From Balneolaceae bacterium (GTDB lineage Bacteria > Bacteroidota > Rhodothermia > Balneolales > Balneolaceae): a stretch of DNA of 32,000 nt. The DNA lies in NCBI GenBank assembly GCA_034669965.1, contig JAXMOK010000001.1, forward strand, positions 814,194 to 846,193, read 5' to 3'. Position 1 is the first letter of the stretch. Each line of letters starts with the position of its first letter. Below are positions 10,145 to 25,709 of this stretch, piece after piece. A model generated the notes under the pieces. It searched no databases. It saw only the letters and a program-made list of their open reading frames with translations, and was not told the origin of the DNA. A program made the translations under genes and the position numbers.

Positions 10145-10252
10145 AAAACCCGATTAATTAATGCGAGGGAATATGGCAGGAAGTAACTTAAAAGGAAAGA
10201 TAAGATTTGAAAATGAAGGCTGGTCAATAAATCACGGATCAGGCTGTTAATA

Positions 10253-10786
10253 TCAGCGGTTAAACTCTATTTCTGCTAATGCTTTCAATATCCCTTTTTT
10301 TATACCGGGACTTAAAGAATTCAGATATTGAGGTTGTGTAATAGCTTCAAGTTCGTTGTGTAATTCAGGATATTTACTCACCATTTCCAAGATATTTTCG
10401 ATTGCTACATACCTAACCGATGATTGCTTACCCACCGACTCCCAAATTGATACGCTGATATCATAAAGCACACTTTCTTGATCATTTGTAAGCTCCAACA
10501 TTTGAAGTAATTTAATCAATTCTCTTTGGTGGCCATCCTCTTTTTTAGGTAAAACCTGCAGAAACCGATCTATATAAGGGATTGCTTGTGCATCATTTTT
10601 ATCCATCGCAGATCTTGTTACCCAAGCCGCTCTCCAACACATTGGTGGTTTATTGGTTAAGCATATCGGTAAAATTTGTTCTATTAATTCCGGATATTCT
10701 CGAATTGTTTGAACTGCTTTCGTCTTAAAATATTTTGAAAGTAGTAGTTCTAAAGGTGGTTGATCCGACATTTGCACGATGTTCAT
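10253..10786 (-). CDS. Hypothetical cytoplasmic helical-repeat (HEAT/ARM-like) protein
   Basis: 177-aa ORF with an ATG start and no signal peptide. The composition looks all-helical. A vague resemblance to DNA-alkylation-repair/HEAT-like proteins is not enough to name it. It lies downstream of an intrinsic terminator, so it is probably its own transcription unit. Confidence 0.5.
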   Translation of the reverse strand: MNIVQMSDQPPLELLLSKYFKTKAVQTIREYPELIEQILPICLTNKPPMCWRAAWVTRSAMDKNDAQAIPYIDRFLQVLPKKEDGHQRELIKLLQMLELTNDQESVLYDISVSIWESVGKQSSVRYVAIENILEMVSKYPELHNELEAITQPQYLNSLSPGIKKGILKALAEIEFNR

Positions 10787-10852
10787 TGATTGATCAATAA
10801 AACAGATTAATGCTTAAAATAAAACGATCTGCTATCAAGACTTTGACATAAT

Positions 10853-10882
10853 AAAAAAGCCTTACTTTCCAGTAAGGCTTTT
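10853..10882 (-). terminator. Rho-independent terminator closing the 10.9-19.3 kb operon
   Basis: Perfect 10-bp stem AAGCCTTACT (10857-10866) / AGTAAGGCTT (10871-10880) with a TTCC loop. On the minus strand it is followed by TTTTTTAT. Confidence 0.75.
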
Positions 10883-10958
10883 GGGGTCATCTATCAATAT
10901 GGCTCGCACAATCAAAAAAGCGAGCCTTGGGGGGTATTTGGGTTCTTAATAAAGTCTG

Positions 10959-11117
10959 TTATGGTTGTTCTTTTAGATCTTCGATACAATCAACCGAATT
11001 CAGTAAATCTGAAACCATCATTCTTATTCCGTTATAGATATAAAACTTTGCTTCAGGATATTCCTCTAATAACATCTCTAACTGCATCATAATATTTCGA
11101 ATGTCTCTTTCCATCAT
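10959..11117 (-). CDS. Small ORF (52 aa), hypothetical acidic helical protein
   Basis: Below the ORF-track size cutoff. Minus-strand ATGATG at 11117, TAA at 10961-10959. Product: MMERDIRNIMMQLEMLLEEYPEAKFYIYNGIRMMVSDLLNSVDCIEDLKEQP. A GAGAGGG SD-like element lies 4-5 nt upstream of the ATG. It sits between the receptor gene and the terminator. Confidence 0.4.
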   Translation of the reverse strand: MMERDIRNIMMQLEMLLEEYPEAKFYIYNGIRMMVSDLLNSVDCIEDLKEQP

Positions 11118-11204
11118 CTGGCCCTCTCAGTAATTTTGTTTCTTCCACCGTACCTCATATTTATCGGTCGAAATCTGAACTGTTAATTACAACTAGCGTG
11201 CCAA

Positions 11205-14132
11205 TTATATTTTTACTCGAAGAGACCCTCCGAATCTTCGTGCACCGGGGCCGGTTAAGTACTCAAAACCTAGATTGTTAACACCTCCTCCATTCGAGTT
11301 TACGTTAGGATCGAAGCCCGTTCCCTCCGGAATATTGTACATTTTCAGAAAGGCATTTTCTACCGAAACGGAAATAATTACCTCTTTTAATCCCGTTTTT
11401 TGTATCCAGTTTTGTGGAATTTGATACGAAAACCCAATGTGTGCAATACGTAAATGAGTCATGTCGTATACTCTAAGCTCATCAGGACCGAACCCTAGAT
11501 TATTGAAGTAATATTGCTGTTTACTAATTTCGATTTCGTTAGGTGAGCCATCAAATTGAACCCCTTCAATTATAAAAGATTCATCCCTGTCTAATGTTGA
11601 AGTAACCAAACCTCTTCCCACCAACGACCCAATCCACGAGCTGTACATGTCGCCACCTTGTTGATAATCAACTTGTAATGTGATAGACAGATTCTTGTAA
11701 TCGAATTGTTGAAGTACAGCAAGGTTCCAATCAGGAACTGGGTTTCCGATAATTGAATTTTGATCGGTGATGTAATTTCCGTTACCGTCGATTATAGGCG
11801 TTCCAATGGGTACGCCTCGCATATTCGGATCTGCTTGTTGCATTTCACGAGTTACTCGCAAAATTGTACTTCCATACATGCTTAAATATGGTTCATTTAT
11901 TTGCGCCAAATTTCCTCTGAATCCTTGACTATGCCCTAACTGAATGGCATTAAATGTACCTGTGTATTCTTTTACATCGGCTTTAGAAGTGCTGAAATTA
12001 GAAGTAATTTGCCAATTTACTTTGCCTTGTACAGGAATAAGTTGGGCTTGAGCATCCAAACCTTCTACTTCCATTTCAAGGAGATTATCTAATATTGAAC
12101 TGTAACCTAAATTCGGATTTACAGCAATCCTCGAAATTAAATCGGTATGAACGCGATTGTAATATTTAAACGATAGCAAAATACGGTTATTCAAAAATCC
12201 TATGGTTGAAGCCCATTGTTTTTCTATGGATCGCTCGGGCTTTAAGTTTTCATTAAAACCAACACTAGCTCGATCTTGAACAAGTATTTCAAGTTCAGTT
12301 AAGATTGATCTCCCTGAAGTCAGATAGGAGTATGAAATATCGAAGTAACTGAATAACTCAGTTCTTGTTGAAAACAATTGTGTTGGGGTAAGTCCGATTG
12401 TTACTGATGGATAGGTAGCTTCCAAATCCTGTTGTTGTAACGATTGATTCCACTGTTTTCGTAACCCAAATGAGCCATAAACCCATTGGTTGTATTTGAT
12501 ATCTAGCGAAGCAAATGCTCCGAGTGAACGCCGTTCAAAATCTCTTTCCATCAATTCGCTAGTAAATGAGTTTGTTGAACTTTGTACTCGAAAATTATCA
12601 TGATCAAACACTCCAAACTCTCTTATATCTGTACTTTCGAGACCTTTTTCATTTATATTTTCACTAATATAATGGGCTCCCAAATTAATCTCCGTCATCA
12701 AGCTTTCAGAGAAATCAGGTCGGATTTTTGCAATAGCAAAATTATCAAGAAGCGTTCTATCAACTTCTATTGTTTGAAATAACCCAAGTGTATAAGGGAA
12801 ATTAAATGTACCATTCGGATTAAGTTTGTACTCTTGATTTTCGTCGTAGCTATCAAAAGTATATTTGTAGTAAAATTCAAAAATATCAGATGGCTTAAAT
12901 GAGAGTGCTGTTTTACCAAGTATTCTATTTGTCTCGTTCGTTGTTGATGCATTATTTACGAACCATTTAGGGTGTATGATATCTTGGCGGTAATACAGGA
13001 ATCCATCGTTATCAGGATTAACATTTGGCATATCTAAATCGATAGACCGCGGCGTAAAAAATAGATAAGTGAAAGCGCCGGTTGTAGCCCCCCCTTCTAC
13101 AACGCCACTCCCGCTCCCCGCCGATTGTGGTGGCATTTTAACATCGGTGAATAAAAACTGAACGCTTGAGTTACCACTTACTTGATTTGTAATTTGATAA
13201 TTCGCCGATGTGCCAAAACTGTTTTTAAGTATAGAGTTGTTTGGAGTGAATCCATCTTCTTGATTTCCAGAGTAATTAAAACTCCACGAAGTTTTTCCCT
13301 TCTTGTAATTAACATCAATGAAAGAACGTGTTGCTATACCATTTCTGAAATATGATTCGATAGGCGTATTTTTGGCTTCATATCGATAAACCTGGGTTGA
13401 ATAATCTGGTGCATCATTTGAAGTAAAATTGTAATACCCATACGGATGATCTACCAGAACTGTACCGTCGTCATCAAGACCATTGTAATTCGATGGAAAG
13501 TTTGCTGGGTCTTGACTGTCAAATGAAGCGCCCCACGTACTATAAAAAGCCCCGTATTGTTCATTAAACCCAATACCATATTTATTTTGATAATCCGGTC
13601 TACTCGATATTGAAGTTGAATAAACACTCTGATCTATGTTGATCTCCAATCCTTCGTTAATCTGCTGTTTTGCTCCTCTGATGGTGTTGATTTCAATCAC
13701 ACCATTCGTTGCTTCTTCGCCATAAATAATTGTTCCTTGTAAAGAGCTAAGTACACGTACATCAATAATTTCAGATGGATGTATATCAAATGATCGGTTT
13801 GGGGTTACTAGAGTTCCTCCTCCGTTAAATGCTGTACTGTTAAAGTTACTAGCACCATCAAAACGAATTCCATCAATAATTATAAGAGGGTCGCTAGAAG
13901 CATTTAAACTCGAATAACTTCGAATAACTGCATTTGTACCTGTACCGGAAACTCCTCCAGTTGCAGTAATTTTTAATCCGGGAGCAAGACCTGACAAAAC
14001 CCTTAGGAAATCAGCTTGGGATACAGATTTAGAAGTGATGATATTTGTTGAATCAGGAAATGATTGAGATTGTACCTGATTAATTCCGAAAAAGAGAAGT
14101 AAAAGCGAAAGTAGATATTTTTTCATAGGCAT
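11205..14132 (-). CDS. TonB-dependent receptor homologue, SusC/RagA-like outer-membrane beta-barrel (plug plus barrel)
   Basis: 975 aa. Signal peptide MPMKKYLLSLLLLFFGINQVQSQ. Plug-domain signature LSGLAPGLKITATGGVSGTGTNAVIRSYSSLNASSDPLIIIDGIRFDG ... IIDVRVLSSLQGTIIYGEEATNGVIEINTIRG, compared with SusC as I remember it. A long beta-rich C-terminal region follows. There is no CarboxypepD_reg N-domain and no susD-like gene downstream. Confidence 0.8.
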   Translation of the reverse strand: MPMKKYLLSLLLLFFGINQVQSQSFPDSTNIITSKSVSQADFLRVLSGLAPGLKITATGGVSGTGTNAVIRSYSSLNASSDPLIIIDGIRFDGASNFNSTAFNGGGTLVTPNRSFDIHPSEIIDVRVLSSLQGTIIYGEEATNGVIEINTIRGAKQQINEGLEINIDQSVYSTSISSRPDYQNKYGIGFNEQYGAFYSTWGASFDSQDPANFPSNYNGLDDDGTVLVDHPYGYYNFTSNDAPDYSTQVYRYEAKNTPIESYFRNGIATRSFIDVNYKKGKTSWSFNYSGNQEDGFTPNNSILKNSFGTSANYQITNQVSGNSSVQFLFTDVKMPPQSAGSGSGVVEGGATTGAFTYLFFTPRSIDLDMPNVNPDNDGFLYYRQDIIHPKWFVNNASTTNETNRILGKTALSFKPSDIFEFYYKYTFDSYDENQEYKLNPNGTFNFPYTLGLFQTIEVDRTLLDNFAIAKIRPDFSESLMTEINLGAHYISENINEKGLESTDIREFGVFDHDNFRVQSSTNSFTSELMERDFERRSLGAFASLDIKYNQWVYGSFGLRKQWNQSLQQQDLEATYPSVTIGLTPTQLFSTRTELFSYFDISYSYLTSGRSILTELEILVQDRASVGFNENLKPERSIEKQWASTIGFLNNRILLSFKYYNRVHTDLISRIAVNPNLGYSSILDNLLEMEVEGLDAQAQLIPVQGKVNWQITSNFSTSKADVKEYTGTFNAIQLGHSQGFRGNLAQINEPYLSMYGSTILRVTREMQQADPNMRGVPIGTPIIDGNGNYITDQNSIIGNPVPDWNLAVLQQFDYKNLSITLQVDYQQGGDMYSSWIGSLVGRGLVTSTLDRDESFIIEGVQFDGSPNEIEISKQQYYFNNLGFGPDELRVYDMTHLRIAHIGFSYQIPQNWIQKTGLKEVIISVSVENAFLKMYNIPEGTGFDPNVNSNGGGVNNLGFEYLTGPGARRFGGSLRVKI

Positions 14133-14177
14133 TTTAGCTTCAATAACTGAAGCGACGACAGTTTAGTGCCTTGAAAA

Positions 14178-14870
14178 TTAGTTAGAAGCTACTTGATAAT
14201 AAATACGTACAACAATTCTTCTATTCAATGCTCTGTTTTCGATAATATTTCCACCCTCTTCATCAACATGAGGAACTACAGGTTTTGTATCTGCATATCC
14301 TGACGCTTTCAACCTCTCTGCCTCAATGCCTTCTTCGATAAAGTATTTTACTACGCCAGATGCTCTGGCAACAGATAATTCCCAGTTAGAAGGATAGATG
14401 GGGGTGTTGATGGGTACGTTATCTGTGTGACCTTCAACATCAACATTGAACTTATAAAAATCCAGTTCGTTCATTGCCTGTGTAACTTTATCTATAATTA
14501 CCTGACCAGAAGGTAATAATTCAGCCTCGCCCGATTGGTAAAATGAACTACTTGAAAAGTATAGTTTGATCCCGTCACGATCGAGGGTAATATCAACCAA
14601 GCCTTGAGTTTTTTCAACAGCTAACAACGAATCCAAATCTGCTTTAACTTCTGCTAGTGGCGTACGAACATCTTCTTGTTTAGAAATCTCAGAACGTAAA
14701 CCTTGCTTCATCTGCTCCCAGAGATTTAAATCAACGTAAGACACAGCAATTAACATTGCAAAGAACGCGAGTAACAGGGTTATCATATCACTATAAGTGA
14801 GTAACCATTCTTGGTCCTCAACATGCTCTTCCTTTATATCAGAATTTCCGCCGTATTCGCGTTTTATCAC
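14178..14870 (-). CDS. MotB/PomB-like stator subunit with C-terminal OmpA-like peptidoglycan-binding domain
   Basis: 230 aa. GTG start at 14870, preceded by AGGAGG 7 nt upstream. Single TM WLLTYSDMITLLLAFFAMLIA carrying the conserved proton-accepting Asp (residue 28; compare E. coli MotB D32). OmpA_C motifs GHTDNVP...NWELSVARASGVVKY...GYADTKPV...NRALNRRIVVRI. Confidence 0.85.
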   Translation of the reverse strand: MIKREYGGNSDIKEEHVEDQEWLLTYSDMITLLLAFFAMLIAVSYVDLNLWEQMKQGLRSEISKQEDVRTPLAEVKADLDSLLAVEKTQGLVDITLDRDGIKLYFSSSSFYQSGEAELLPSGQVIIDKVTQAMNELDFYKFNVDVEGHTDNVPINTPIYPSNWELSVARASGVVKYFIEEGIEAERLKASGYADTKPVVPHVDEEGGNIIENRALNRRIVVRIYYQVASN

Positions 14871-14883
14871 CGGAAGCCTCCTG

Positions 14884-15702
14884 TTAGTCTGCTACTTGCT
14901 TATTCTTGAAATCTCTTCTTAAATAAGTACTTAATTTATCCTGAATGTAGAAGGATGATTTTTTATCGTTGATCAACAAAATACCTTCGAGAATAAAATA
15001 CTCACGAAACCGGTTAAGTTGAGCTACATTTTTAATCTTCTCGGCAACCGGATAGAAAATAAACCGCGCCAATGATATCCCGTACAGTGTGGTTATCAAT
15101 GCGGCTGCTAATCCCGGCCCCATTCCAGAAGGATTTTCGAGTTGACCAAGCATAACAATCAAACCAAATAAAGTACCAAACATACCAAACGAAGGTGCCG
15201 CAGCTCCCATAGCACGGAGAACATCAACTACTACCAGTTGTCGAAAATATTGCTCTTCAATATGATTAGATCCAAACGACTTGATATCTTCGCTCGAATA
15301 ATTCGTACTCAATAAAGAAAACAAATAACCGGATACCTCACCTATATGCTCGTCTTCGAGTTTGGAAAGCGCAGATACGCGATTATTTTTAATCTGATCG
15401 TTCCAAACAAGCATTTCACCTAAATCAGATTCTAAGGTTTTGGATGATGTTTTAGCTTGGCTAAATAAGTAAAGCAATCCTGCAAACGCTTGCCCAACAT
15501 ATTTTGGTTGATAGGTTATAAACACTGCATTTAGAATACCTCCCATCACTATAAATAAACTTGGAAGGTTTAAAAAGGTGTATTGCGATAGAAAAGGGAT
15601 GGAATTTAAAACGTTTGTAACACTGGTGATTTCGGTAACCCCGAAAACCAGAATTCCTACACTAAAAAGTACCCCTAATATATTTGTTAACGAAAGTCTC
15701 AT
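14884..15702 (-). CDS. MotA/PomA-like stator subunit (MotA/TolQ/ExbB proton-channel family)
   Basis: 272 aa with flagellar-MotA topology: 2 TM, a ~100-aa cytoplasmic loop, 2 TM and a cytoplasmic tail. AAAPSFGMFGTLFGL and ALITTLYGISLARFIFYPVAEKI carry prolines at residues 170 and 218 (compare E. coli MotA P173 and P222). An ATGA overlap links it to the upstream gene. Confidence 0.85.
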   Translation of the reverse strand: MRLSLTNILGVLFSVGILVFGVTEITSVTNVLNSIPFLSQYTFLNLPSLFIVMGGILNAVFITYQPKYVGQAFAGLLYLFSQAKTSSKTLESDLGEMLVWNDQIKNNRVSALSKLEDEHIGEVSGYLFSLLSTNYSSEDIKSFGSNHIEEQYFRQLVVVDVLRAMGAAAPSFGMFGTLFGLIVMLGQLENPSGMGPGLAAALITTLYGISLARFIFYPVAEKIKNVAQLNRFREYFILEGILLINDKKSSFYIQDKLSTYLRRDFKNKQVAD

Positions 15703-16325
15703 TGTCCACCGTCCTCTCGTAGTTCATTAATTAATGTTTCTAATTCCGGAATACTTGGTACAGGAATATTCGGATCCATCTGTACGGCTTTATTCCAATT
15801 TGCCCGAGCTGCAGTAATATTCTCCATCATAAAAAAGATAGTCCCTTTAAGTGCATACGCGTCGGCTGTTTCTTGAATCCTCATCGTTTTTTCAACTTCG
15901 GCTAATGCGTCGTTGTATTCTCCCAAATAAAATAAATCCTGTGCTTTTCTATAACTCGCTAACAATGTTTGTATGTCTCGAGCACGGTTTTTAACTAACG
16001 ATGAATCAACTACAATGATTGAATCGGATTCCGTTGGAGTCATACCTTTCAGATCTAAATAGAATTCATCTTGGCTAGGGTCAAGGGTTACCTGAATAGC
16101 AGAACTTGCATTTCGATAGGTTACGATAACTGGGTTTGGTCGCCTAGTTTCATTTTCCGATTCAGCAGAATTCGAATTACTACTCAATTCCGGAATCGCT
16201 TGAATACCGTTCTGCGGCTCTTCTTGAGCCGCTTCAGATGACTTACAACTATAGCCTGCCATAGCAATCAAAGTCACTAATAGTATTGATTTAAAATCTA
16301 ACAACCGCGTGCACACCATATCCAA
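15699..16325 (-). CDS. TPR-repeat lipoprotein (periplasmic)
   Basis: 208 aa. The track start at 16325 is TTG, and the first ATG is at 16319. N-terminus (M)VCTRLLDFKSILLVTLIAMAGYSC looks like a lipoprotein signal. A low-complexity linker follows, then a TPR-like region (DLFYLGEYNDALAEVEKTMRIQETADAYALKGTIFF...ANWNKAVQMDPN). It overlaps the upstream gene by about 29-35 nt. Confidence 0.65.
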   Translation of the reverse strand: MDMVCTRLLDFKSILLVTLIAMAGYSCKSSEAAQEEPQNGIQAIPELSSNSNSAESENETRRPNPVIVTYRNASSAIQVTLDPSQDEFYLDLKGMTPTESDSIIVVDSSLVKNRARDIQTLLASYRKAQDLFYLGEYNDALAEVEKTMRIQETADAYALKGTIFFMMENITAARANWNKAVQMDPNIPVPSIPELETLINELREDGGQ

Positions 16326-17376
16326 CCTTATTGTATGTTATTCTATCGTTGTTGCTAAGCCGAAGCTCCTCGCCGGATAATATGAGACTTGTATAAAACG
16401 AGAGACCTAAGTTTTTACTCATATTAAACATGATTCCGGGACGGGCCGTAAACATTTCACCTTTTACATTACTAAGGGGAAACTGAACACTGGTATTCAA
16501 GTACACTACCATTCTGTAATTATCAATATCTTCATTTATTTCAGGTGAAAGCGCTTGAAAGTACGTCAAGCCAAAATTTAGTAAGAACAAATTAAATTCA
16601 TCGTCACGGCGCGCGCGTAATATATTTAACCCACCTGTAAAACCGATATATGCACTATTATCTCGATTTAATGGTTGCCGATATGTAAAATTGGCTGAAT
16701 AAGTTAATATTGGATTACTAAATGATGTATCCTGATTTGCAAATGATGTGTCGGCTCTGAATTTTGAATCCGTTTGCATAGACCCTGCTCCTACTTTTAA
16801 TATAAGAGTTTGGCCTTTATCTAGTATTTCCACCACTTCAAAGGGATTTGCAATAAAGCTTTTTGTCCACACAATTTCTCGTGAACGAGGATTCATTATT
16901 CTAATCGACAATATCAATCCGTCAGGGTTACGACGCTGTAAACCAACTTCAATTAGGCCGTTAACACCATACTTTTCAGTAATTTCAGTCAGAAATTCTG
17001 GCGAAACATCAGCAAGTGATCTTCCTTGAATATTTAATATCTGAAGAGTGCTATCGTTCCCCATAATTTTCATCTTATCATTGGGTTCAAGCTCTGGGGG
17101 CGAAAGTACGGTTATACCCGCATACGTTCGCAGTGATGACTCAATCTCGCTTCTGATAAATTCAACCTCTTGAACCGTAAAACGCATTGCGTTATAGTTC
17201 ATTTTATAAACAGCAACGCGCCGAATATTCGCTGGTATGTCGCTCAATTGATCTACCATTTGATTAGTGATCAATCCCATCTGATATGGCACACCTTCTT
17301 CATGGGTTTGTGCCTGTAAATTTTCTACTAAACTAGTAGTTAGTATCAGAAAACTAAACAGTACTACTCTTTTCAT
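16291..17376 (-). CDS. Two-domain outer-membrane protein: periplasmic N-domain (CsgG/FlgO/LpoB-like pattern) plus C-terminal beta-barrel
   Basis: 361 aa. Signal peptide MKRVVLFSFLILTTSLVENLQAQ. The N-half (IRRVAVYKMNYN...GVNGLIEVGLQRR..LILSIRIMNPRSREIVWTKSF) has the pattern seen in CsgG/FlgO-type periplasmic domains. The C-half has alternating hydrophobic strands and ends in the OMP-type terminal HAVVRF. The start lies 2 nt after the upstream stop, with an AGAGGG SD-like element. Confidence 0.6.
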   Translation of the reverse strand: MKRVVLFSFLILTTSLVENLQAQTHEEGVPYQMGLITNQMVDQLSDIPANIRRVAVYKMNYNAMRFTVQEVEFIRSEIESSLRTYAGITVLSPPELEPNDKMKIMGNDSTLQILNIQGRSLADVSPEFLTEITEKYGVNGLIEVGLQRRNPDGLILSIRIMNPRSREIVWTKSFIANPFEVVEILDKGQTLILKVGAGSMQTDSKFRADTSFANQDTSFSNPILTYSANFTYRQPLNRDNSAYIGFTGGLNILRARRDDEFNLFLLNFGLTYFQALSPEINEDIDNYRMVVYLNTSVQFPLSNVKGEMFTARPGIMFNMSKNLGLSFYTSLILSGEELRLSNNDRITYNKVGYGVHAVVRF

Positions 17377-17378
17377 TG

Positions 17379-19325
17379 CTAGCCCTCTGTCTTCATTTTT
17401 CGACGTACAGCATACAATACAGTCTTCTGAGCATCTTCGATTGCTGCTTTTGGTACTTCAGCAGGATTATCAACCTCCGACAATATCAGCTGTTGCTCAC
17501 GTTTCGGCCGAACTTTAAGAATTTTTTCCCTCACAGTAGCGGGTGCCGTTTTAAGTGCGAGAATTAACGTTTCGGTAGGAATATCCTCTAGGGCACTTTG
17601 TACAAAATCGTCTTTAACTTTCGGTAGATCATCAAAACCGATAAAGAATTTCTTAATACGCTTAGCCAAGTTTAAATCTTGTTCGGCAATCGAACGCACA
17701 TAATCGTCTTGCTCAGACAATGGCATAGTTTCTAGAGTAGTAAGAATCGAATCGATACCATCGGCAGCTACATATTTCATATCCGATACAGATAGCGCTT
17801 TATTAGAGAAATGAGCAGCAACTTTTTTATACACCGAAATTGGAATATTATTGATCTTACCCATTTTTAGCAGAATAGAAATCCTTTTTTGTTCATCCAT
17901 TTTCTGAAGGATAACACCGGCTCTTTCCCCAGCAATTTGAGCTAACAATATTGCTACTAATTCATCCGACTCTTCTTTAATGAGGTGCAATAATTGCACA
18001 TCGGTAAGTTGATACACAAAATCGAATAGACTTGAGCCGGAGTCAGCCGTACCATTCTTAGAATTAACCTGCTGAAGACTTCTTCTCAAAGCTTTAACTT
18101 CGTCTATCCTTTCATCGATTGGAATAGATTCTAGGTTTTGAATGGAATATTTAACCGATTCATAGTGCTCCACTTTCAAATGTGGTTCCAGTACATTGAG
18201 CAATTTCTCATCAACACTATTTAATGCTCGAGCCGATCTTATTATTCCCTGCTCATCATCACTAGCAATCCATTGCCCAACTAAATCTGCAACTTTATCT
18301 GGATGACTAATGCATGAATTTGTCACAAACGTTTTATCCTCTTCATGCTGAGCTAATGTTTTAGCATCTGGACCTTTAGGTTCTTCTTTTGTTTCAGTAG
18401 CAGGCATTACAGAAGCGACCTCATATCCAGGCATTGGTTGCATTCTATAATCTTCATCCCTTTTCGAAGGGCGACGTAATAATGCAATTAACAATGCAAT
18501 CAAAAATAAAACACCTAATATTGCTATCACATAAATCAAATGCTGTGGGTTGTTCCAATCAATGCCAAGAAACATGTTCTTTTCTAGCTCAGCTGTTTGT
18601 TGTTGATTTAAAGCCGGATCTAGCATTTCTATCTGTGGCTCTTCCTCATCTGAGTCATCCTTAGTATTTGCTTGGCGGTTTTGAGCATCCTGTTGAATAG
18701 CACGGGCACTTCTTGGAAATACTTTTTTCTCAACCGTTACTATATCGCCACGAAATGGATCCGCATTTGCAATTAAAGACGTGGCCTCTTCAACAAATTC
18801 AACATCTTCATCACTATACGATGTATCAACAAGGACTTTAATGTTTAAGCGGGTCAGCCTGAAACGAGCATCAAACCCGGAGGCTTTTAAACTATCGGTT
18901 GTTCCATTTGTAGACCTTTGAAGATTAGGTGGCACAAACGGAAGACCGGGTAGATTTTCGATACGCACAGGCTCTTCACCTTCGATCACTTCGTATCCTC
19001 TTGGAACCAGCACACGTTCAAGCGAAGCTTTCGCATCTACTATAAACGTACCACGCCGATAATAATCGGAAAGAGCGTTATTTAAAATTACCTCGTAATA
19101 CTGCTCATACTTAGCAGCTTCCTCCTGAACATCGGTAGATACTACCTGTCCGGGTAATGTTTGGGCAATAATACCAGTGCTTAAACAGGTAAATACCAGT
19201 ACTAATAGCCATTTTTGTTTTTTCCCAACCATTTCAAACCCCTGTAGAGTAAGTTGATGCCTGTAGTTTTGAATTTTTTTACGAAAAGAGACTAAGTATG
19301 CAGAAAATTTTAGAGTTTTCCACAT
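17379..19325 (-). CDS. Bitopic inner-membrane protein with a periplasmic FliF/RBM-like region fused to a cytoplasmic full-length FliG-like domain
   Basis: 648 aa. TM/signal anchor at aa ~38-55 (KKQKWLLVLVFTCLSTGIIAQ). Periplasmic region aa ~56-261. TM2 at aa 262-284 (HLIYVIAILGVLFLIALLIALLRR). Cytoplasmic aa ~340-648 align by eye with FliG N/M/C domains: FDFVYQLTDVQLLHLIKEESDELVAILLAQIAGERAGVILQKMDEQKRISILLKM, FFIGFDDLPKVKDDFVQSALEDIPTETLILALKTAPATVREKILKVRPKREQQLILSEVDNPAEVPKAAIEDAQKTVLYAVRRK. An alternative start at M32 (19232) has a better GGGG RBS. Confidence 0.75.
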   Translation of the reverse strand: MWKTLKFSAYLVSFRKKIQNYRHQLTLQGFEMVGKKQKWLLVLVFTCLSTGIIAQTLPGQVVSTDVQEEAAKYEQYYEVILNNALSDYYRRGTFIVDAKASLERVLVPRGYEVIEGEEPVRIENLPGLPFVPPNLQRSTNGTTDSLKASGFDARFRLTRLNIKVLVDTSYSDEDVEFVEEATSLIANADPFRGDIVTVEKKVFPRSARAIQQDAQNRQANTKDDSDEEEPQIEMLDPALNQQQTAELEKNMFLGIDWNNPQHLIYVIAILGVLFLIALLIALLRRPSKRDEDYRMQPMPGYEVASVMPATETKEEPKGPDAKTLAQHEEDKTFVTNSCISHPDKVADLVGQWIASDDEQGIIRSARALNSVDEKLLNVLEPHLKVEHYESVKYSIQNLESIPIDERIDEVKALRRSLQQVNSKNGTADSGSSLFDFVYQLTDVQLLHLIKEESDELVAILLAQIAGERAGVILQKMDEQKRISILLKMGKINNIPISVYKKVAAHFSNKALSVSDMKYVAADGIDSILTTLETMPLSEQDDYVRSIAEQDLNLAKRIKKFFIGFDDLPKVKDDFVQSALEDIPTETLILALKTAPATVREKILKVRPKREQQLILSEVDNPAEVPKAAIEDAQKTVLYAVRRKMKTEG

Positions 19326-19479
19326 CTTTCTTCAAAAAACTACATAATTCTACCTATAAAATTCTACTCAATATCACTATATCAAACCAATATGTTGTTA
19401 AAATGCACTAAATAGACATTATTTTTGCCGAATTATCCACATTTTAAAATTTATTGTGTTTTCGGAGGCAAGTATAGCA

Positions 19480-20745
19480 CTAGTTCTGTCTAGGCATCGA
19501 TTTTAGTACTAAATTTGCCAACTTTTCTTCCAGATACGCCTTTTCACATCGGGTTTTGCTATAATCTATCGCTACCACATAATATGATTTAGCTTTTTCA
19601 AATTCTCCAATTTTTGCATGAACTCTACCTAATGCAGCAAATAACAAAGAAAACTGAACTGAGGACTTCGACTTCAATTTCTTTAAAAGAGTCAGGCTTT
19701 TTTCTACTTCTCCGTATTCACATAGGGCGATTGCTAAACTAGTTTCAACTTGAATCGAATCATCGAAAGAAAGTAACCGTTGGTACAAATCTATGATTCT
19801 CTCCCAATCGGTATCGCTATAGGAATTGGCAGTACTGTGAATTGCAGCAATACCAGACTCAATGTGAAATCTACTTAACCTTTCTGTTATTCTTGATAAT
19901 TTTTGGTGTACTAGTCCTCTGTGAATGAGCTCTCTGTGCCAAAGTTTACGGTTTTGGTCTTCTATACTAATAGGTATCCCTTTGTCATCTACTCTTGCTT
20001 CAAAGCGAGCGAATTGAAATAACATTAAAGCAAATAATGCGTGTGTAGATGCATTGCAAAGAGTTTTATCATCAATAACCCACTCCGTTAATCGCATTGC
20101 TTCGAAACAAATATCGGCATTTACTTCGCTCTCGCTGTTTGAGGTTGAATATCCTTCGTTAAACATCAGATACAGAACCATTTCTACAATGGGTAAACGC
20201 TGTTGTAAATCCTTATCTGTGAGTTCTAGAAAATAGTTCTGATGTTCTTTTAACGTGATTTTTGCTCTATAAATCGCTTTCCTAACCGCTGCAGGCTCCA
20301 TAAAAAAGGCGTTCGCAATTTCTTTATCTCCAAAACCACATACCATTTTTAAAGTGAGCATAATTTGAGATTTAACAGCCAATAATGGGCTACAACAACC
20401 AAATAGTGCTTTTAGCTGAATGGCTTTTTCTTGATGATAAACCGCCCCTATTAAATCAGATTCTTCTTCAATAATTGGTACTAACTTTTTATTTAGTTCT
20501 TTGTGTCGGCCTTTTTTGTTTAACTCATTTATAGTTTTGTTCGTAGCCACTTTCATCAACCAAGCTTCAGGATTCTCGGGAATCCCCTTCATCCCCCAAA
20601 GCCGAAGTGCGGTATAAAATGTGTCTTGAATTGAATCCTCTATCAATTCTGCATTATTGAACCCAAACTTACCAATTAATATAGAAGCCATCTTTCCAGA
20701 CTGTTGCCTGAAAAGATGGTCGAATAGATGGTTTGCTACCTTCAT
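19480..20745 (-). CDS. ECF sigma factor with C-terminal TPR-like extension (ECF42-type)
   Basis: Sigma-70 region 2 (IEDSIQDTFYTALRLWGMKGIPENPEAWLMKVATNKTINELNKKGRH), a region 4-like segment (GFGDKEIANAFFMEPAAVRKAIYRAKITLK) and a ~200-aa helical/TPR-like tail. I chose the ATG at 20745, which forms an ATGA overlap with the stop of the upstream YciI-like gene. The track start at 20808 would overlap that gene by 67 nt. Confidence 0.75.
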   Translation of the reverse strand: MKVANHLFDHLFRQQSGKMASILIGKFGFNNAELIEDSIQDTFYTALRLWGMKGIPENPEAWLMKVATNKTINELNKKGRHKELNKKLVPIIEEESDLIGAVYHQEKAIQLKALFGCCSPLLAVKSQIMLTLKMVCGFGDKEIANAFFMEPAAVRKAIYRAKITLKEHQNYFLELTDKDLQQRLPIVEMVLYLMFNEGYSTSNSESEVNADICFEAMRLTEWVIDDKTLCNASTHALFALMLFQFARFEARVDDKGIPISIEDQNRKLWHRELIHRGLVHQKLSRITERLSRFHIESGIAAIHSTANSYSDTDWERIIDLYQRLLSFDDSIQVETSLAIALCEYGEVEKSLTLLKKLKSKSSVQFSLLFAALGRVHAKIGEFEKAKSYYVVAIDYSKTRCEKAYLEEKLANLVLKSMPRQN

Positions 20746-21086
20746 TTCATTTCGATATGCATAACCGGCCGAATTTCTACCGATCCCCCTAAATTTAATA
20801 TTGGGCATCCTTTTGAGAGTTCGGTTGCTTCTGCAAGGCTGTTCGCTTTAATGATATAAAAACCACTTACCAGTTCTTTTGCCTCGATGTATGGGCCATC
20901 AGTAACCATTCTATCTTTCCCGTGAACAGAAAACGCATCACCTTCTAATGGTTCGCCAGAATCGTAGTGGTCGCCAAGCTCCGCTATCCATTGTCCGTGT
21001 GCATTTATCTCGTTTTGGTATTCCTCAGGCGTCATATTTGCGTAACTATCACCTGATTCAAATAAAATGAGCATATATTTATTCAT
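20742..21086 (-). CDS. YciI/DGPF (YCII-related) domain protein
   Basis: MNKYMLILFESGD...VTDGPYIEAKELVSGFYIIKANSLAEATELSKGCPIL is typical of YCII-related domain proteins. Start chosen at 21086 because AAGGAG lies 7 nt upstream. The track start at 21116 would add 10 aa. Confidence 0.75.
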   Translation of the reverse strand: MNKYMLILFESGDSYANMTPEEYQNEINAHGQWIAELGDHYDSGEPLEGDAFSVHGKDRMVTDGPYIEAKELVSGFYIIKANSLAEATELSKGCPILNLGGSVEIRPVMHIEMK

Positions 21087-21169
21087 CTCGTCTCCTTTTT
21101 TAATATTGATGTACACCCGTAATACAATTGAATGAAAGGAAACGGGACATCACTTAAAAATGCAATGTC

Positions 21170-23455: not shown

Positions 23456-23881
23456 CTAGCTAACAAGTTTTGATTTATATGCCATTGCATAAATTTTCAT
23501 TTGTTTTACCATACTTGCTAATCCATTGGCTCTGGTTGGTGAGAGATGCTCCGCTAGCCCTATTTGTTTCAAAAAATCAGGTTTATGAGACAGAATATCG
23601 TCAGGGGTTTGTCCCGAATATACTCGAATCATCAACGCAACCAATCCTTTGGTTATAGCAGCATCGCTATCTGCGGCAAACATTATTCTATCCCCTTCCA
23701 AATGAGCCGTAAGCCATACTTGGCTTTGGCATCCTTTTACCAGATTCTCATTTTTGTGATCTTCTTCGGGTAATACTTCTAGTTTCGAACCCAGTTTTAT
23801 GATGTGTTTGTACTTATCGGTCCAGTCTTCAAACAAACTGAATTCTTTAATTATTCTTTCTTGGGTTTCGTTGATGGTCAT
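23456..23881 (-). CDS. sufE: SufE-family sulfur acceptor protein
   Basis: 141 aa. Conserved active-site region LVKGCQSQVWL and overall SufE/BolA-adjacent-type length. Confidence 0.75.
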   Translation of the reverse strand: MTINETQERIIKEFSLFEDWTDKYKHIIKLGSKLEVLPEEDHKNENLVKGCQSQVWLTAHLEGDRIMFAADSDAAITKGLVALMIRVYSGQTPDDILSHKPDFLKQIGLAEHLSPTRANGLASMVKQMKIYAMAYKSKLVS

Positions 23882-23916
23882 AAGTAATTTGAGTCAATTT
23901 CTTCAATCCACAATAT

Positions 23917-23940
23917 AAAAAAAGCCCACATCAGTGAGCT
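23917..23940 (-). terminator. Rho-independent terminator after the PAS gene
   Basis: On the minus strand, AGCTCAC-TGAT-GTGGGCT forms a 7-bp stem with one G-U pair (plus-strand 23923-23940), followed by TTTTTTTAT. Confidence 0.6.
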
Positions 23941-23964
23941 TATTTAATCCGGAGTTTTCGGATT

Positions 23965-24846: not shown

Positions 24847-24968
24847 TCTTTGTCACTGTTTTTTTGCTTTACTCGCCTAAAATATTTGTTGTCTATCGTA
24901 CTTAAACTTCGCCAAAGTACTTATCATTCCCGTAAATACTCAACATTTTAAAAAAAAACCTCAGATAT

Positions 24969-25709
24969 ATGCGCCAGCATATTTTACTTATAGCTCTAAT
25001 GGCTTATTTAATATCAAGCTGTTCAATTTTTAAAAAAACTATCGAAACATACAGCCCTGTAATGGTTGAGATTGAAGGAGGTGAATTCCTATTTGGCGAT
25101 TTTTATGAATTATCGAACTCCGATGCTCTTCCTCTCCATCAAGTAAATGTAAAACCATTTATGATTGGCAAATTTGAAATCACTTTTGAGCAGTACGATG
25201 ATTTTGCTTTGAAATCCGGTCGCGATCTGCCCGATGATGGTGCTTACGGTAGAGGTAAACGTGCGGTAGTAGACATCACTTGGGATGAGGCCTTGGCATT
25301 TTGCAAAAGTTTAGGATACCGTCTACCATCAGAAGTTGAGTGGGAATATGCTGCCCGATCGGGTGGAAAAAACCACGTTATTTCCGGAACAGATAGTTTA
25401 TCGCACCTCAAAAATTATGCAAATGTTCGAAGTTCAGGAATAAACTTTAGTTTTATGGTCGGATCTAAGAAGCCCAATGAATTAGGACTTTACGATATGA
25501 GCGGCAATGTTTTTGAGTGGATCGATGAGTTTTATCAGTTTTACAGCCTACCCGATCAAAAACACGACAATGACGCTGATGCTATTCGAATTATTCGTGG
25601 CGGCAGTTTTGGAGAAGAGGAAATGGCAACACGCACGTATTGGAGAGTGGGCACTTTACGTGATGTAAAAGCAACCGATATTGGCTTTCGGTGCGCTAAA
25701 AGTTTGTGA
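24969..25709 (+). CDS. Formylglycine-generating-enzyme (SUMF1/FGE-sulfatase) domain lipoprotein
   Basis: 246 aa. Lipoprotein signal LIALMAYLISSCS. FGE-family motifs: MVEIEGGEFLFGD, FMIGKFEITFEQY, WDEALAFCKSLGYRLPSEVEWEYAARSG, YDMSGNVFEW, RIIRGGSF, IGFRCAKS. Confidence 0.8.
   Translation: MRQHILLIALMAYLISSCSIFKKTIETYSPVMVEIEGGEFLFGDFYELSNSDALPLHQVNVKPFMIGKFEITFEQYDDFALKSGRDLPDDGAYGRGKRAVVDITWDEALAFCKSLGYRLPSEVEWEYAARSGGKNHVISGTDSLSHLKNYANVRSSGINFSFMVGSKKPNELGLYDMSGNVFEWIDEFYQFYSLPDQKHDNDADAIRIIRGGSFGEEEMATRTYWRVGTLRDVKATDIGFRCAKSL

What the first reader, a model, noticed from the sequence alone, without database searches (positions are those of the whole stretch)
10853..19325. MotA/MotB stator operon with a membrane-anchored FliG-like protein, a TPR lipoprotein and two outer-membrane proteins: candidate undescribed non-flagellar envelope-spanning motor
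Seven co-directional genes are packed as a single unit. Their order is:
1. FliF/FliG-like fusion (17379-19325).
2. After a 2-nt gap, an OM beta-barrel protein with a periplasmic N-domain (16291-17376).
3. After a ~30-nt overlap, a TPR lipoprotein (15699-16325).
4. After an ATGA overlap, MotA (14884-15702).
5. After a 13-nt gap with AGGAGG, MotB with an OmpA-like PG-binding domain (14178-14870).
6. After a 45-nt gap with no terminator, a SusC-like TonB-dependent-receptor homologue (11205-14132).
7. A 52-aa ORF (10959-11117), followed by a strong terminator (10853-10882).

The mechanistic hallmarks of a working stator/rotor pair are retained. These are the MotB TM Asp (residue 28), the MotA prolines at 170 and 218, and a FliG C-domain with a partly conserved charged 'torque helix' (PKREQQLILSEVD versus E. 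coli SQRAANILRDDL). None of the other flagellar genes that normally surround motAB/fliG (fliF, fliM/N, flhA/B, fliI, flg rod/hook) occurs anywhere in the 32 kb. The partners are instead periplasmic and outer-membrane proteins.

The design logic (ion-driven 5:2-type stator, IM anchor, TPR lipoprotein, OM barrels) recalls Agl-Glt, GldLM/PorLM and ExbBD-TonB systems, but with a FliG-type interface. Possible roles are energising the co-encoded OM transporter in place of ExbBD-TonB, surface motility or adhesin movement, or OM remodelling.
Basis: partly seen in the sequence, partly recalled or inferred. Interest (0 to 1): 0.92.

Follow-up and report, generated by a model that had tools for sequence, protein, structure and literature searches.

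The report
Flagellar-type rotary motor without a flagellum
A tightly conserved five-gene operon in marine Balneolaceae and several other non-flagellated bacterial lineages encodes the rotor and stator of a flagellar motor, with two outer-membrane-linked partners and no other flagellar genes nearby, which points to an undescribed ion-driven rotary machine of the cell envelope.

Summary
All seven ORFs are at the stated coordinates, and the domain calls hold.

**Rotor.** The 648-aa protein (probable true start M32) is a natural single-chain fusion. It joins the FliF MS-ring RBM3/beta-collar, TM2 and C-tail to a full FliG (N, M and C domains).

**Other components.**
- A ~360-aa outer-membrane protein with a TolB-N/LpoB-like domain and an 8-strand barrel.
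- A TPR lipoprotein.
- A PomA/PomB-like stator with intact channel residues.

**Conservation.**
- These five genes are syntenic in all 55 loci whose contig reaches far enough (Balneolaceae and Fibrobacteria).
- The set persists, sometimes permuted, in relatives at 22-26% identity, including Bacteroidales and Elusimicrobiota MAGs.
- All are under strong purifying selection (omega 0.007-0.08).
- The MotA-R90/FliG-D289 charge pair co-varies between phyla.
- The FliM-binding EHPQR motif is lost.

**Hosts.** One host is *Gracilimonas tropica* DSM 19535, described as non-motile and reported to lack flagellar assembly genes.

**Not part of the core.** The SusC-like gene and the 52-aa ORF are neighbours only in close relatives.

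**Reading.** This is most likely a stand-alone, probably Na+-driven, non-switching rotary motor. Its output is unknown. No description was found in the literature searched.

The parts
17379..19325 (-). Rotor gene: a single-chain FliF(RBM3/beta-collar, TM2, C-tail)::FliG(N, M, C) fusion. The probable true start is at 19232 (M32 of the 648-aa ORF). Layout: signal peptide or TM1, periplasmic RBM3-like domain with conserved LPGLP and VLVDTSY...RGD.V.V....FP motifs, one TM helix, and a cytoplasmic full-length FliG.
   Evidence: Pfam and NCBIfam. AF2 model with pLDDT 84. Foldseek: full-length FliG (3hjl, 8wiw, 8umx; about 315 columns, E 1e-9) and FliF RBM3/collar (8z5v_A, 8z4g_1, 6sd1_A; TM-score 0.52-0.55 normalised to the target). 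YscJ_FliF_C hit in 30 of 49 members, best 7e-8. The family profile matches Salmonella FliF residues 458-560.
16291..17376 (-). Outer-membrane protein (361 aa): signal peptide, periplasmic TolB-N/LpoB-C-like alpha/beta domain, C-terminal 8-strand beta-barrel ending in Phe. Orphan family with no Pfam or NCBIfam model.
   Evidence: AF2 model with pLDDT 76. Foldseek: LpoB-C 4q6l TM-score 0.69, TolB E 2e-6, OmpA TM domain 1bxw 0.60, OmpW, OmpX, NspA. No sequence family. Conserved across phyla, with a C-terminal aromatic residue in nearly every aligned member.
15699..16325 (-). TPR lipoprotein (208 aa): lipoprotein signal with a conserved Cys, a linker, a small beta region, and a C-terminal TPR module.
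   Evidence: TPR_1/TPR_2 hits. Hydrophobic stretch plus Cys conserved in Balneolaceae and Fibrobacteria. The same TPR module is found fused to the C-terminus of a ~1000-aa protein in a variant cassette (E 5e-11).
14884..15702 (-). Stator A subunit (272 aa), PomA/MotP-like flagellar-type MotA.
   Evidence: NCBIfam MotP 2e-31 and PomA 1e-27, against TolQ 1e-3. Best solved relative is Vibrio PomA 8bri at 1e-22. Equivalents of PomA P151, T158, T186 and P199 are invariant in 53 family members.
14178..14870 (-). Stator B subunit (230 aa, GTG start): MotB/PomB-like, with TM Asp28, a plug and an OmpA-type peptidoglycan-binding domain.
   Evidence: MotB_plug plus OmpA. NCBIfam MotD 5e-46 and MotS 1e-37. 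Solved relatives: Clostridium MotB 6ysf 1e-26, MotS, PomB, with the Asp aligned. AGGAGG lies upstream.
11205..14132 (-). SusC/RagA-like outer-membrane transporter (975 aa). It is a lineage-specific neighbour, probably co-transcribed in this genome, and not part of the conserved system.
   Evidence: TIGR04056 1e-72, below cutoff. Plug domain aligns with BT2264 5fq6_B at 3e-17. Present downstream of MotB only in L003-L009. No terminator in the 45-nt gap.
10959..11117 (-). Conserved 52-aa protein of unknown function. It is restricted to one Balneolaceae subclade and is found downstream of MotB with or without the SusC-like gene in between.
   Evidence: tblastn and HMM hits in 10 loci. omega 0.034 at dS 0.6.
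10855..10882 (-). Intrinsic-terminator-like hairpin (12-bp stem followed by a T run) that probably ends the transcription unit in this genome.
19233..19479 (-). AT-rich intergenic region upstream of the rotor gene. It is the presumed promoter region. No promoter has been verified.
   Evidence: Sequence read. Only weak sigma-70-like matches.

Best explanation
The five genes at 14178-19232 encode a self-contained, non-flagellar rotary motor built from the torque-generating core of the flagellum.

**Proposed mechanism**
1. *Rotor (inferred from FliF homology).* The FliF-RBM3/collar::FliG fusion oligomerises through its periplasmic ring-building domain. This forms an inner-membrane ring that carries one FliG per subunit on its cytoplasmic face.
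2. *Stator (inferred from intact plug, Asp, Pro and Thr residues).* PomA5/PomB2-type units are anchored to peptidoglycan by the MotB OmpA domain and conduct ions. The ion is probably Na+, because the PomA T158/T186 equivalents are kept and the hosts are marine or halophilic.
3. *Torque (supported by residue conservation and co-variation).* The stators turn against the FliG C-domain torque helix.
4. *No switching (motif loss is shown; the consequence is inferred).* There is no FliM or FliN and the EHPQR motif is lost. The motor should therefore be non-switching and not under chemotaxis control.
5. *Accessory proteins.* The TPR lipoprotein and the OMP with a TolB-N-like domain are the constant outer-membrane-tethered parts. 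I consider two roles:
   - A periplasmic scaffold that positions the stators, as PflA/PflB or MotX/MotY/FlgT do in complex flagellar motors. This is somewhat more likely.
   - A coupling of the rotor to the outer membrane, for example the TPR module binding the invariant LPGLP tip of the collar.
6. *Output.* This is not known. The most likely class is mechanical work on the envelope (surface structure, outer membrane or peptidoglycan), not swimming.

The SusC-like gene and the 52-aa ORF are local neighbours, not components.
For: **Gene-set conservation**
- The order rotor, OMP, TPR, MotA, MotB is kept in all 55 loci whose contig is long enough, in both Balneolaceae and Fibrobacteria.
- No other neighbour is consistently shared between the phyla.
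- The same set appears at 26% identity (L063/64) and in permuted order at 22% identity (L065/66).
- It also occurs in an Elusimicrobiota MAG, and in variant form (without the ~360-aa OMP) in a Bacteroidales MAG.

**Family size**
- More than 150 representative clusters at the 50% level, mostly 560-750 aa and matching the query over most of its length.

**Rotor anatomy**
-.

**Stator type and channel residues**
-.

**Interface**
- The FliG R281 equivalent is invariant in both phyla.
- The D289 equivalent is E in 42 of 43 Balneolaceae, which also have K/R at the MotA R90 position in 42 of 42.
- In Fibrobacteria the D289 equivalent is G (13 of 18) and the MotA R90 position is Q (10 of 11).
- The R90-D289 and E98-R281 pairing is taken from PMC7564593.

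**Selection**
- Purifying selection on all five genes (omega 0.007-0.079 at dS 0.4-0.8).

**Hosts**
- *G. tropica* DSM 19535 carries the cassette (L028). It is described as non-motile (PMC5167729 Table 1) and as lacking flagellar-assembly genes (PMC9909488).
- No flagellar genes occur in the window or among the Pfam-annotated neighbours of ten other loci.

**Precedent for scaffolds**
- TPR proteins acting as stator scaffolds: PMC11870540.
Against: - No whole-genome scan for a flagellar regulon could be run on any host. Some Balneolaceae do carry flagellar genes (the Aliifodinibius group), and *Balneola vulgaris* is described as flagellated.
- Ring formation, rotation and ion type are inferred from homology. 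Only monomer models were made.
- There is no rod, so how rotation of an inner-membrane ring would do useful work, or cross the peptidoglycan, is unexplained.
- The charge-pair co-variation rests on essentially one phylogenetic contrast.
- Taxonomy outside Balneolaceae rests on MAG labels.
Confidence: 0.7

Rival explanations
1. Ordinary flagellar genes: these are the organism's normal fliG and motAB, which happen to lie away from the rest of the flagellar regulon.
For: The domains are genuinely flagellar-type. Source databases often label the protein 'flagellar motor switch protein FliG'. Some Balneolaceae have flagellar genes.
Against: - The rotor protein is a membrane fusion that lacks FliF RBM1/2, which in flagella surround the export gate. 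It also lacks the FliM-binding EHPQR motif.
- The partners are an OMP and a TPR lipoprotein that are not flagellar families.
- The cassette is present in a non-motile isolate reported to lack flagellar-assembly genes, and in a Bacteroidales MAG.
Confidence: 0.03
2. A decaying remnant of a lost flagellum with no present function.
For: The literature interprets partial flagellar gene sets in Balneolaceae as leftovers of gradual loss (PMC9909488; PMC12199754).
Against: - omega is 0.007-0.08 on all five genes.
- ORFs are intact and channel residues invariant across two phyla.
- The gene set is maintained even where the order is permuted.
- Two dedicated non-flagellar partners are gained in every cassette.
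Confidence: 0.05
3. Energiser of the adjacent SusC-like transporter, replacing ExbBD-TonB.
For: In this genome the SusC-like gene follows MotB after 45 nt with no terminator. It has a real plug but only about 16 mature residues before it, with no obvious canonical TonB box, and no SusD partner gene.
Against: - Adjacency exists only in 7 closely related loci out of about 55.
- Elsewhere glyoxalase, SRAP, peptidase or other genes follow MotB.
- No TonB-like protein is present.
- The large protein in the variant cassette is unrelated to SusC.
Confidence: 0.05
4. A Tol-Pal-like envelope tether that is not a true rotary machine. The FliF-FliG protein would be a static inner-membrane platform. The 5:2 stator, the TolB-N-like OMP, the TPR lipoprotein and the OmpA domain would together couple the inner membrane, peptidoglycan and outer membrane for envelope integrity or division.
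For: - The parts list parallels TolQ/TolR, TolB N-domain, CpoB (TPR) and Pal (OmpA-like). TolB is the top Foldseek hit for the OMP.
- PMC12204202 reports that Bacteroidetes lack recognisable tol-pal loci.
- Broad presence across the Balneolaceae sampled suggests a housekeeping role.
Against: - The stator is flagellar-type, not TolQR-type.
- There is no TolA, no TolB propeller and no Pal lipoprotein.
- Retention and co-variation of the torque-helix/MotA charge pair argue for a working FliG-MotA interface.
- A ring-building domain would not obviously be needed for a static tether.
Confidence: 0.12

Closest known systems
Bacterial flagellar motor core (FliF MS-ring, FliG, MotAB/PomAB stator)
   Same: - Homologous FliF RBM3/beta-collar, TM2 and C-tail.
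- Full FliG N/M/C with the torque-helix Arg.
- PomA/PomB-like stator with plug, Asp, Pro and Thr channel residues and an OmpA peptidoglycan-binding domain.
   Different: - FliF and FliG are one polypeptide.
- No RBM1/2.
- No FliM or FliN, and the EHPQR motif is lost.
- No export apparatus, rod, hook, filament or L/P-ring genes at the locus.
- Constant partners are an OMP and a TPR lipoprotein.
- Found in non-motile hosts.
Chlamydiaceae FliF-FliG fusion protein (Bergeron, bioRxiv 10.1101/023564)
   Same: A natural fusion of a shortened FliF to a FliG-like domain, in bacteria without flagella.
   Different: - The chlamydial protein is about 330 aa and keeps RBM2 plus one further RBM.
- It carries only a FliG-M-like domain.
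- It has no MotAB partner and is thought to work with the type III secretion system.
- The present family has RBM3/collar plus full FliG and is always encoded with a stator.
Laboratory FliF-FliG full-frame fusions (Salmonella, abstract of PMC6079021; Vibrio construct in PDB 8z4d/8z4g)
   Same: They show that a single-chain FliF-FliG can assemble rings (abstract listed; fusion chains matched).
   Different: These are engineered or spontaneous constructs of full-length FliF inside a flagellar system, not a natural stand-alone operon.
Periplasmic stator scaffolds of complex flagellar motors (Campylobacter PflA/PflB TPR proteins; Vibrio MotX/MotY/FlgT)
   Same: - TPR proteins and outer-membrane-linked proteins surround the motor and hold stators (PMC11870540).
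- From memory only, not tested here: MotX is a Sel1/TPR-like protein of similar size, and FlgT has a TolB-N-like domain.
   Different: - No sequence homology to PflA, PflB, MotX or FlgT was detected.
- Those scaffolds decorate a complete flagellum.
Tol-Pal system (TolQRA, TolB, Pal, CpoB)
   Same: A 5:2 motor, an inner-membrane partner, a TolB-N-like fold, a TPR protein and an OmpA-type peptidoglycan binder, all encoded in one operon.
   Different: - The stator belongs to the flagellar clade.
- The partner is FliF-FliG, not TolA.
- No beta-propeller and no Pal.
Other non-flagellar 5:2 motor systems (ExbBD-TonB, AglRQS-Glt, GldLM/PorLM, ZorAB)
   Same: An ion-driven 5:2 motor coupled to periplasmic or outer-membrane components.
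   Different: - None of these uses FliG or a FliF ring.
- MotA here has no ZorA match, and its ExbB and TolQ matches are weak.
- No GldL, GldM or TonB domains were found.

Membership tests
Bacterial flagellum (flagellar motor) | FliG with N, M and C domains and a charged torque helix facing MotA | tested here: met
   Foldseek aligns about 315 columns with full-length FliG. FliG_C is found in 49 of 49 members, FliG_M in 48 and FliG_N in 44. The R281 equivalent is invariant.
Bacterial flagellum (flagellar motor) | FliF MS-ring protein with RBM1, RBM2 and RBM3 | tested here: not met
   There is only one periplasmic alpha-beta-beta-alpha-beta domain, and it matches RBM3/collar. No YscJ_FliF (RBM1/2) hit was found.
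Bacterial flagellum (flagellar motor) | Switch complex: FliM and FliN, and the FliG EHPQR motif that binds FliM | tested here: not met
   No FliM or FliN is present in the window or flanks. EHPQ is replaced by E-S-D-E in Balneolaceae and E-S-L-G in Fibrobacteria.
Bacterial flagellum (flagellar motor) | Flagellar-type MotA/MotB stator (plug, TM Asp, channel Pro/Thr, peptidoglycan-binding domain) | tested here: met
Bacterial flagellum (flagellar motor) | Type III export apparatus, rod, hook and filament genes in the same genome | not testable with these tools
   None occur in the 32-kb window or among the Pfam-annotated neighbours of other loci. The literature reports that *G. tropica* DSM 19535 lacks flagellar-assembly genes (PMC9909488). 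No whole-genome scan was possible.
ExbBD-TonB / TonB-dependent transport | ExbB/ExbD-type motor, a TonB transducer, and a conserved link to a TonB-dependent transporter | tested here: not met
   ExbB scores E 0.01 against MotP at 2e-31. There is no TonB domain. The SusC-like gene is adjacent in only 7 of about 55 loci.
Tol-Pal | TolQ/TolR motor, TolA, TolB with a beta-propeller, and the Pal lipoprotein | tested here: not met
   TolQ scores only E 1e-3. There are no TolA, propeller or Pal genes. Only the TolB N-domain fold and a TPR protein resemble Tol-Pal parts.
Zorya anti-phage defence | ZorA and ZorB together with ZorC/D (or ZorE, and so on) | tested here: not met
   PADLOC finds no ZorA, ZorC or ZorD match. 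MotB hits ZorB at 2e-19, weaker than its flagellar MotD (5e-46) and MotS (1e-37) matches.
Chlamydial-type FliF-FliG fusion | A ~330-aa protein with RBM2 plus one RBM, a FliG-M-like domain only, and no stator partner | tested here: not met
   The present protein is about 617 aa, has RBM3/collar plus FliG N/M/C, and is always next to motAB. The comparison is with the description in 10.1101/023564.
SusC/RagA transporter (the 975-aa neighbour only) | Plug plus a 22-strand barrel of the SusC family, a TonB box, and a paired SusD gene | tested here: inconclusive
   TIGR04056 scores 1e-72, below the curated cutoff. The plug aligns with BT2264. No Pfam Plug or TonB_dep_Rec hit was found. There is no SusD-like gene downstream. 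A TonB box is not evident.

The most novel reading that the evidence does not exclude
This is a previously undescribed class of envelope machine: a flagellar motor without a flagellum. A ring of single-chain FliF-FliG rotors would be driven by Na+-type stators. It would be mechanically linked, through a TPR adaptor, to outer-membrane components.

A variant form of the cassette sits next to genes that resemble a chaperone-usher fibre system: DUF4402 subunits, a PapD-like protein, and a ~1000-aa protein ending in the same TPR module.

If true, rotation would be used for something other than swimming, such as moving, assembling or turning a surface structure, or remodelling the envelope. The system would also show what a minimal FliG/MotAB motor can do on its own.
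Probability: 0.45. Interest if true: 0.95.

Novelty: new variant of a known kind. Interest (0 to 1): 0.86.

Why it matters
FliG and the FliF ring are regarded as flagellum-specific. All other known 5:2 ion motors (Ton, Tol, Agl, Gld/Por, Zorya) use different partners.

**Why a specialist would care**
- A conserved, selected, stand-alone FliF-FliG plus PomAB operon in non-flagellated bacteria would be the first non-flagellar use of the flagellar rotor/stator pair.
- It bears on two open questions. [quoted passage not shown] The other is which sub-assemblies of the flagellum can function independently.
- It offers a naturally minimal rotor (no switch, no export gate, no rod) for structural and biophysical work on torque generation.

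**Practical points**
- These proteins are being mis-annotated as flagellar switch proteins, which inflates genomic predictions of motility.
- The system is testable. It occurs in the cultured strains *Gracilimonas tropica* DSM 19535 and *Balneola* sp. EhC07.

Tried and rejected
1. The genome scan with the 49-sequence alignment failed because no conserved stretch was found. It succeeded with 13 closer sequences, but it used a single peptide pattern, so the taxonomic range is a lower bound.

**Hypotheses tested and rejected**

3. The SusC-like protein as a recurring partner. It is unrelated to the ~1000-aa protein of the variant cassette (E 0.27) and absent from most loci.
4. The 361-aa OMP as a relative of that ~1000-aa protein. 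hhalign probability is 0.2%.
5. Zorya or another defence system.
6. The 'OMP-TolB-like' proteins of PMC12204202 as the same family. Those carry a beta-propeller, which this OMP lacks.

**Searches that found nothing**

7. A sequence family for the OMP: none in Pfam, NCBIfam or PDB sequences.
8. A cultured Fibrobacter host: only environmental Fibrobacterota MAGs were found.
9. Prior description: ten literature searches found none. The nearest items are the chlamydial fusion and general remarks on orphan rotor proteins.
10. Identity of the ~1000-aa variant protein: no PDB or family match beyond weak TPR and CarboxypepD_reg hits.

Full report
**1. Observation**

- The junctions are as described: a 2-nt gap, a ~35-nt overlap, an ATGA overlap, a 13-nt gap with AGGAGG upstream of a GTG start, and a 45-nt gap.
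- The only convincing minus-strand terminator in 10200-19800 is the 12-bp hairpin at 10882-10855, after the 52-aa ORF.

Profile searches confirm the domain calls:
- The last ~200 residues of the 648-aa protein carry FliG_M and FliG_C.
- The 272-aa protein is a MotA_ExbB protein. Its best NCBIfam matches are the flagellar MotP and PomA models (1e-31 and 1e-27), far ahead of TolQ and ExbB (about 1e-3 and 1e-2).
- The 230-aa protein is a MotB with plug and OmpA domains.
- The 208-aa protein is a TPR protein.
- The 975-aa protein is a sub-threshold SusC/RagA match.

All other ORFs of 100 aa or more in the window are metabolic, transport or regulatory. None is flagellar. The window comes from a Balneolaceae bacterium: the 648-aa rotor protein is 94% identical to that of a Balneolaceae MAG (JAEPNO010000003.1).

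**2. The 648-aa protein is a true FliF::FliG fusion**

Homologs are 605-645 aa and align from M32 of the ORF, so the real start is probably at window position 19232.

An AlphaFold2 model built on 49 diverse homologs is confident (mean pLDDT 84). Numbering from M32, it shows:
- an N-terminal hydrophobic helix;
- a periplasmic alpha-beta-beta-alpha-beta domain with two 20-residue strands;
- one TM helix (residues 229-252);
- a disordered linker;
- an all-helical cytoplasmic region (residues 290-616).

Foldseek against the PDB gives two groups of hits:
- Full-length FliG: 3hjl, 8wiw, 8umx, about 315 aligned columns, E about 1e-9.
- The FliF MS-ring RBM3/beta-collar (S-ring): 8z5v_A, 8z4g_1, 7cg7_A, 6sd1_A, TM-score 0.52-0.55 normalised to the target, probability 1.0.

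The relationship also holds at sequence level:
- 30 of 49 family members hit Pfam YscJ_FliF_C, with a best E of 7e-8. In addition, 44 hit FliG_N.
- The family profile matches Salmonella FliF residues 458-560, which cover TM2 and the FliG-binding tail (E 2.7e-4).

The architecture is therefore: signal peptide or TM1, FliF RBM3/collar, TM2, FliF C-tail, then FliG N, M and C. RBM1 and RBM2 are absent. In flagella these surround the export gate.

**3. The other components**

*MotA.* It aligns best with Vibrio PomA (1e-22). The equivalents of PomA P151, T158, T186 and P199 are invariant in 53 family members from two phyla.

*MotB.* It aligns with Clostridium MotB, Bacillus MotS and Vibrio PomB. The TM Asp is conserved.

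*The 361-aa protein.* It has no sequence family. Its model (pLDDT 76) shows:
- a signal peptide;
- an alpha/beta domain resembling the TolB N-domain and the LpoB C-domain (4q6l, TM-score 0.69 normalised to the target);
- an 8-strand barrel like the OmpA TM domain, OmpW and OmpX, ending in Phe.

This layout is conserved across phyla.

*The TPR protein.* A hydrophobic stretch followed by Cys is conserved in Balneolaceae and Fibrobacteria, so it is a lipoprotein.

**4. The conserved unit is five genes**

*How widespread the rotor family is.*
- An exhaustive search of 1.84 billion representative proteins found more than 150 clusters, at the 50% level, mostly 560-750 aa and matching over most of the query, down to 22% identity.
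- A scan of one genome per species returned 60 loci. They include many Balneolaceae, among them the cultured *Gracilimonas tropica* DSM 19535 and *Balneola* sp. EhC07. They also include about 18 Fibrobacteria MAGs at 26-31% identity.

*Synteny.*
- In all 55 loci whose contig extends far enough, the order is rotor, ~360-aa OMP, TPR, MotA, MotB, with small gaps or overlaps.
- Clustering of all flanking ORFs found no other gene consistently shared between the two phyla.

*More distant members keep the same set.*

| Locus | Identity to window rotor | Arrangement |
|---|---|---|
| L063/64 | 26% | same order |
| L065/66 | 22% | rotor gene moved to the end |
| L070 (Elusimicrobiota MAG) | 25% | same order |
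| L071 | 28% | same order |

*Genes outside the core.*
- The SusC-like gene follows MotB only in the seven closest relatives (at least 77% identity). Elsewhere unrelated genes follow.
- The 52-aa ORF is a real gene (omega 0.034), but it is confined to one subclade.

**5. A variant cassette**

This variant occurs in a Bacteroidales MAG (L069) and in metagenome contigs (L067/68).
- The ~360-aa OMP is missing.
- A ~960-1000-aa unannotated protein lies directly upstream of the rotor gene. It is preceded by DUF4402 proteins and by a ~270-aa protein with weak PapD_N matches.
- That large protein is unrelated to the window's SusC-like protein and to the 361-aa OMP.
- Its C-terminus is homologous to the TPR module of the window's lipoprotein (33% identity, E 5e-11).

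The TPR module is thus a constant element of the system and can be fused to a large envelope protein. The gene order (small subunits, chaperone-like protein, very large protein) resembles a chaperone-usher fibre cluster. This is a lead only.

**6. Evidence that the rotor-stator interface is functional**

Against Salmonella FliG, and MotA against PomA:

| Position | Balneolaceae | Fibrobacteria |
|---|---|---|
| FliG R281 equivalent | R (invariant) | R (invariant) |
| FliG D289 equivalent | E (42 of 43) | G (13 of 18) |
| MotA R90 / PomA R88 equivalent | K or R (42 of 42) | Q (10 of 11) |
| PomA E96 equivalent | S or D | E or D (11 of 11) |

- MotA R90 pairs with FliG D289, and E98 pairs with R281, in the flagellar motor (abstract of PMC7564593, seen). 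The joint presence or absence of the first pair is what a working interface would show.
- This is essentially a single phylogenetic contrast, so it is suggestive rather than decisive.
- The FliM-binding EHPQ motif is replaced by E-S-D-E or E-S-L-G. That fits the absence of FliM and FliN.
- Pairwise dN/dS against the closest relative is 0.007-0.079 for all five genes at dS 0.4-0.8. This excludes decay.

**7. Flagellated or not?**

I could not scan whole genomes. The indirect evidence is as follows.
- *G. tropica* DSM 19535 carries the cassette (L028). It is listed with motility 'None' (PMC5167729 Table 1).
- A KEGG comparison of 16 type strains states that *G. tropica*, *G. amylolytica*, Balneola, Rhodohalobacter, Halalkalibaculum and *Fodinibius salinus* lack flagellar-assembly genes. 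The Aliifodinibius group has an incomplete set (PMC9909488).
- Bacteroidales are non-flagellated by established knowledge, but here the assignment is a MAG label.
- The rotor lacks RBM1/2 and the FliM site, so it could not by itself nucleate an export gate or a switch.

One caveat remains. *Balneola vulgaris* is described as flagellated, although the KEGG study says Balneola lacks the genes. I did not resolve this conflict.

**8. Mechanism**

*Shown computationally:*
- domain composition;
- conservation of the gene set;
- intact stator channel;
- retained and co-varying interface;
- loss of the switch motif;
- purifying selection;
- lipoprotein and OMP character of the partners.

*Inferred:*
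- The fusion forms a ring through its RBM3 domain, as FliF does.
- PomAB-like 5:2 units bind peptidoglycan and conduct ions. The ion is probably Na+, given the Thr residues and the marine or halophilic hosts.
- The stators turn the FliG ring in one direction.

*Role of the TPR lipoprotein and the OMP.* Two roles are possible.
- They may hold the stators. TPR proteins PflA and PflB do this in Campylobacter (PMC11870540). From memory, Vibrio MotX, MotY and FlgT are similar.
- They may link the rotor to the outer membrane. The invariant LPGLP motif lies in the loop between the two long collar strands, which is the sort of extended peptide that TPR domains bind.

*Output.* It is unknown. There is no rod, so how torque would be used, or how it would cross the peptidoglycan, is the main gap.

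**9. Comparison with known systems, and novelty**

- The core is homologous to the flagellar motor, but the system fails three defining features of a flagellum: RBM1/2, the switch, and axial and export genes at the locus.
- It is not a Ton, Tol, Gld/Por or Zorya system.
- The only natural FliF-FliG fusion I found described is the chlamydial one. That protein is much shorter, carries only a FliG-M-like domain, and has no stator.
- Recent surveys note rotor proteins in non-motile genomes as unexplained, and treat flagellar-type stators as a clade tied to flagella.
- Ten literature searches found no description of this operon.
- Source databases call the rotor protein hypothetical, 'FliG C-terminal domain-containing', or, wrongly, FliG.

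I rate it a new variant of a known kind: a flagellar-type motor core in a new, non-flagellar configuration. There is a substantial chance that it is a distinct class of envelope machine.

**10. Limits**

- MAG taxonomy is taken at face value.
- Only monomer models were made.
- The genome scan used a single peptide pattern.
- No expression data were available.
- No phylogeny against canonical flagellar sequences was built, so I cannot say whether the system is a reduction of a flagellum or an older sister lineage. I think reduction is more likely, because RBM3/collar and the flagellar-type stator are flagellar innovations.

Noticed in passing
window 10959-11117 (-); L010:15396-15554; L001:16751-16900: A 52-aa protein is highly conserved (57-96% identity, omega 0.034) in one Balneolaceae subclade. 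It lies downstream of MotB whether or not the SusC-like gene intervenes. It has no family match.
   Followed up: partly
window 11205-14132 (-): The SusC/RagA-like protein has a genuine plug but no Pfam hit and no adjacent SusD gene. Only about 16 mature residues precede the plug, with no obvious canonical TonB box. It is an atypical transporter found only in the closest relatives.
   Followed up: partly
L069:4645-13335; L067:1565-13909: A variant cassette is preceded by DUF4402 proteins, a weak PapD_N-like protein and a ~1000-aa protein. The C-terminus of that protein carries the same TPR module as the window's lipoprotein. This may be a chaperone-usher-like fibre cluster linked to the motor.
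   Followed up: partly
literature (PMC5167729 Table 1 versus PMC9909488 section 3.4): *Balneola vulgaris* is described as motile by flagella, yet the KEGG comparison states that the genus Balneola lacks flagellar-assembly genes. Either the phenotype or the annotation needs re-examination.
   Followed up: no
window 19480-21116 (-): An ECF-like sigma factor with a DUF6596 domain and TPR-like C-terminus, plus a YCII-domain protein, lie directly upstream of the cassette. They are syntenic in 15 Balneolaceae loci only, so they could be a lineage-specific regulator.
   Followed up: no
window 16291-17376 (-), residues 93-125 of the product: A Balneolaceae-specific insertion (EPNDKMKI.GNDS..NIQGRSLAD) in the OMP N-domain is almost invariant but modelled with very low confidence. 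This is typical of a segment that folds on a partner.
   Followed up: no
window 23456-30150 (-); clusters c5-c8 in L002, L010, L019 and others: Methylmalonyl-CoA mutase, MeaB, a PAS-domain protein and SufE are conserved upstream neighbours of the cassette in about 20 Balneolaceae loci. This is probably plain synteny rather than a functional link.
   Followed up: no
window 17379-19232 (-), product residues 94-98 (numbering from M32): The LPGLP motif lies in the loop between the two long collar strands. P95 is invariant, and L94, G96 and P98 are conserved in at least 90% of 49 members down to about 18% identity. It is a candidate docking peptide for the TPR module.
   Followed up: no
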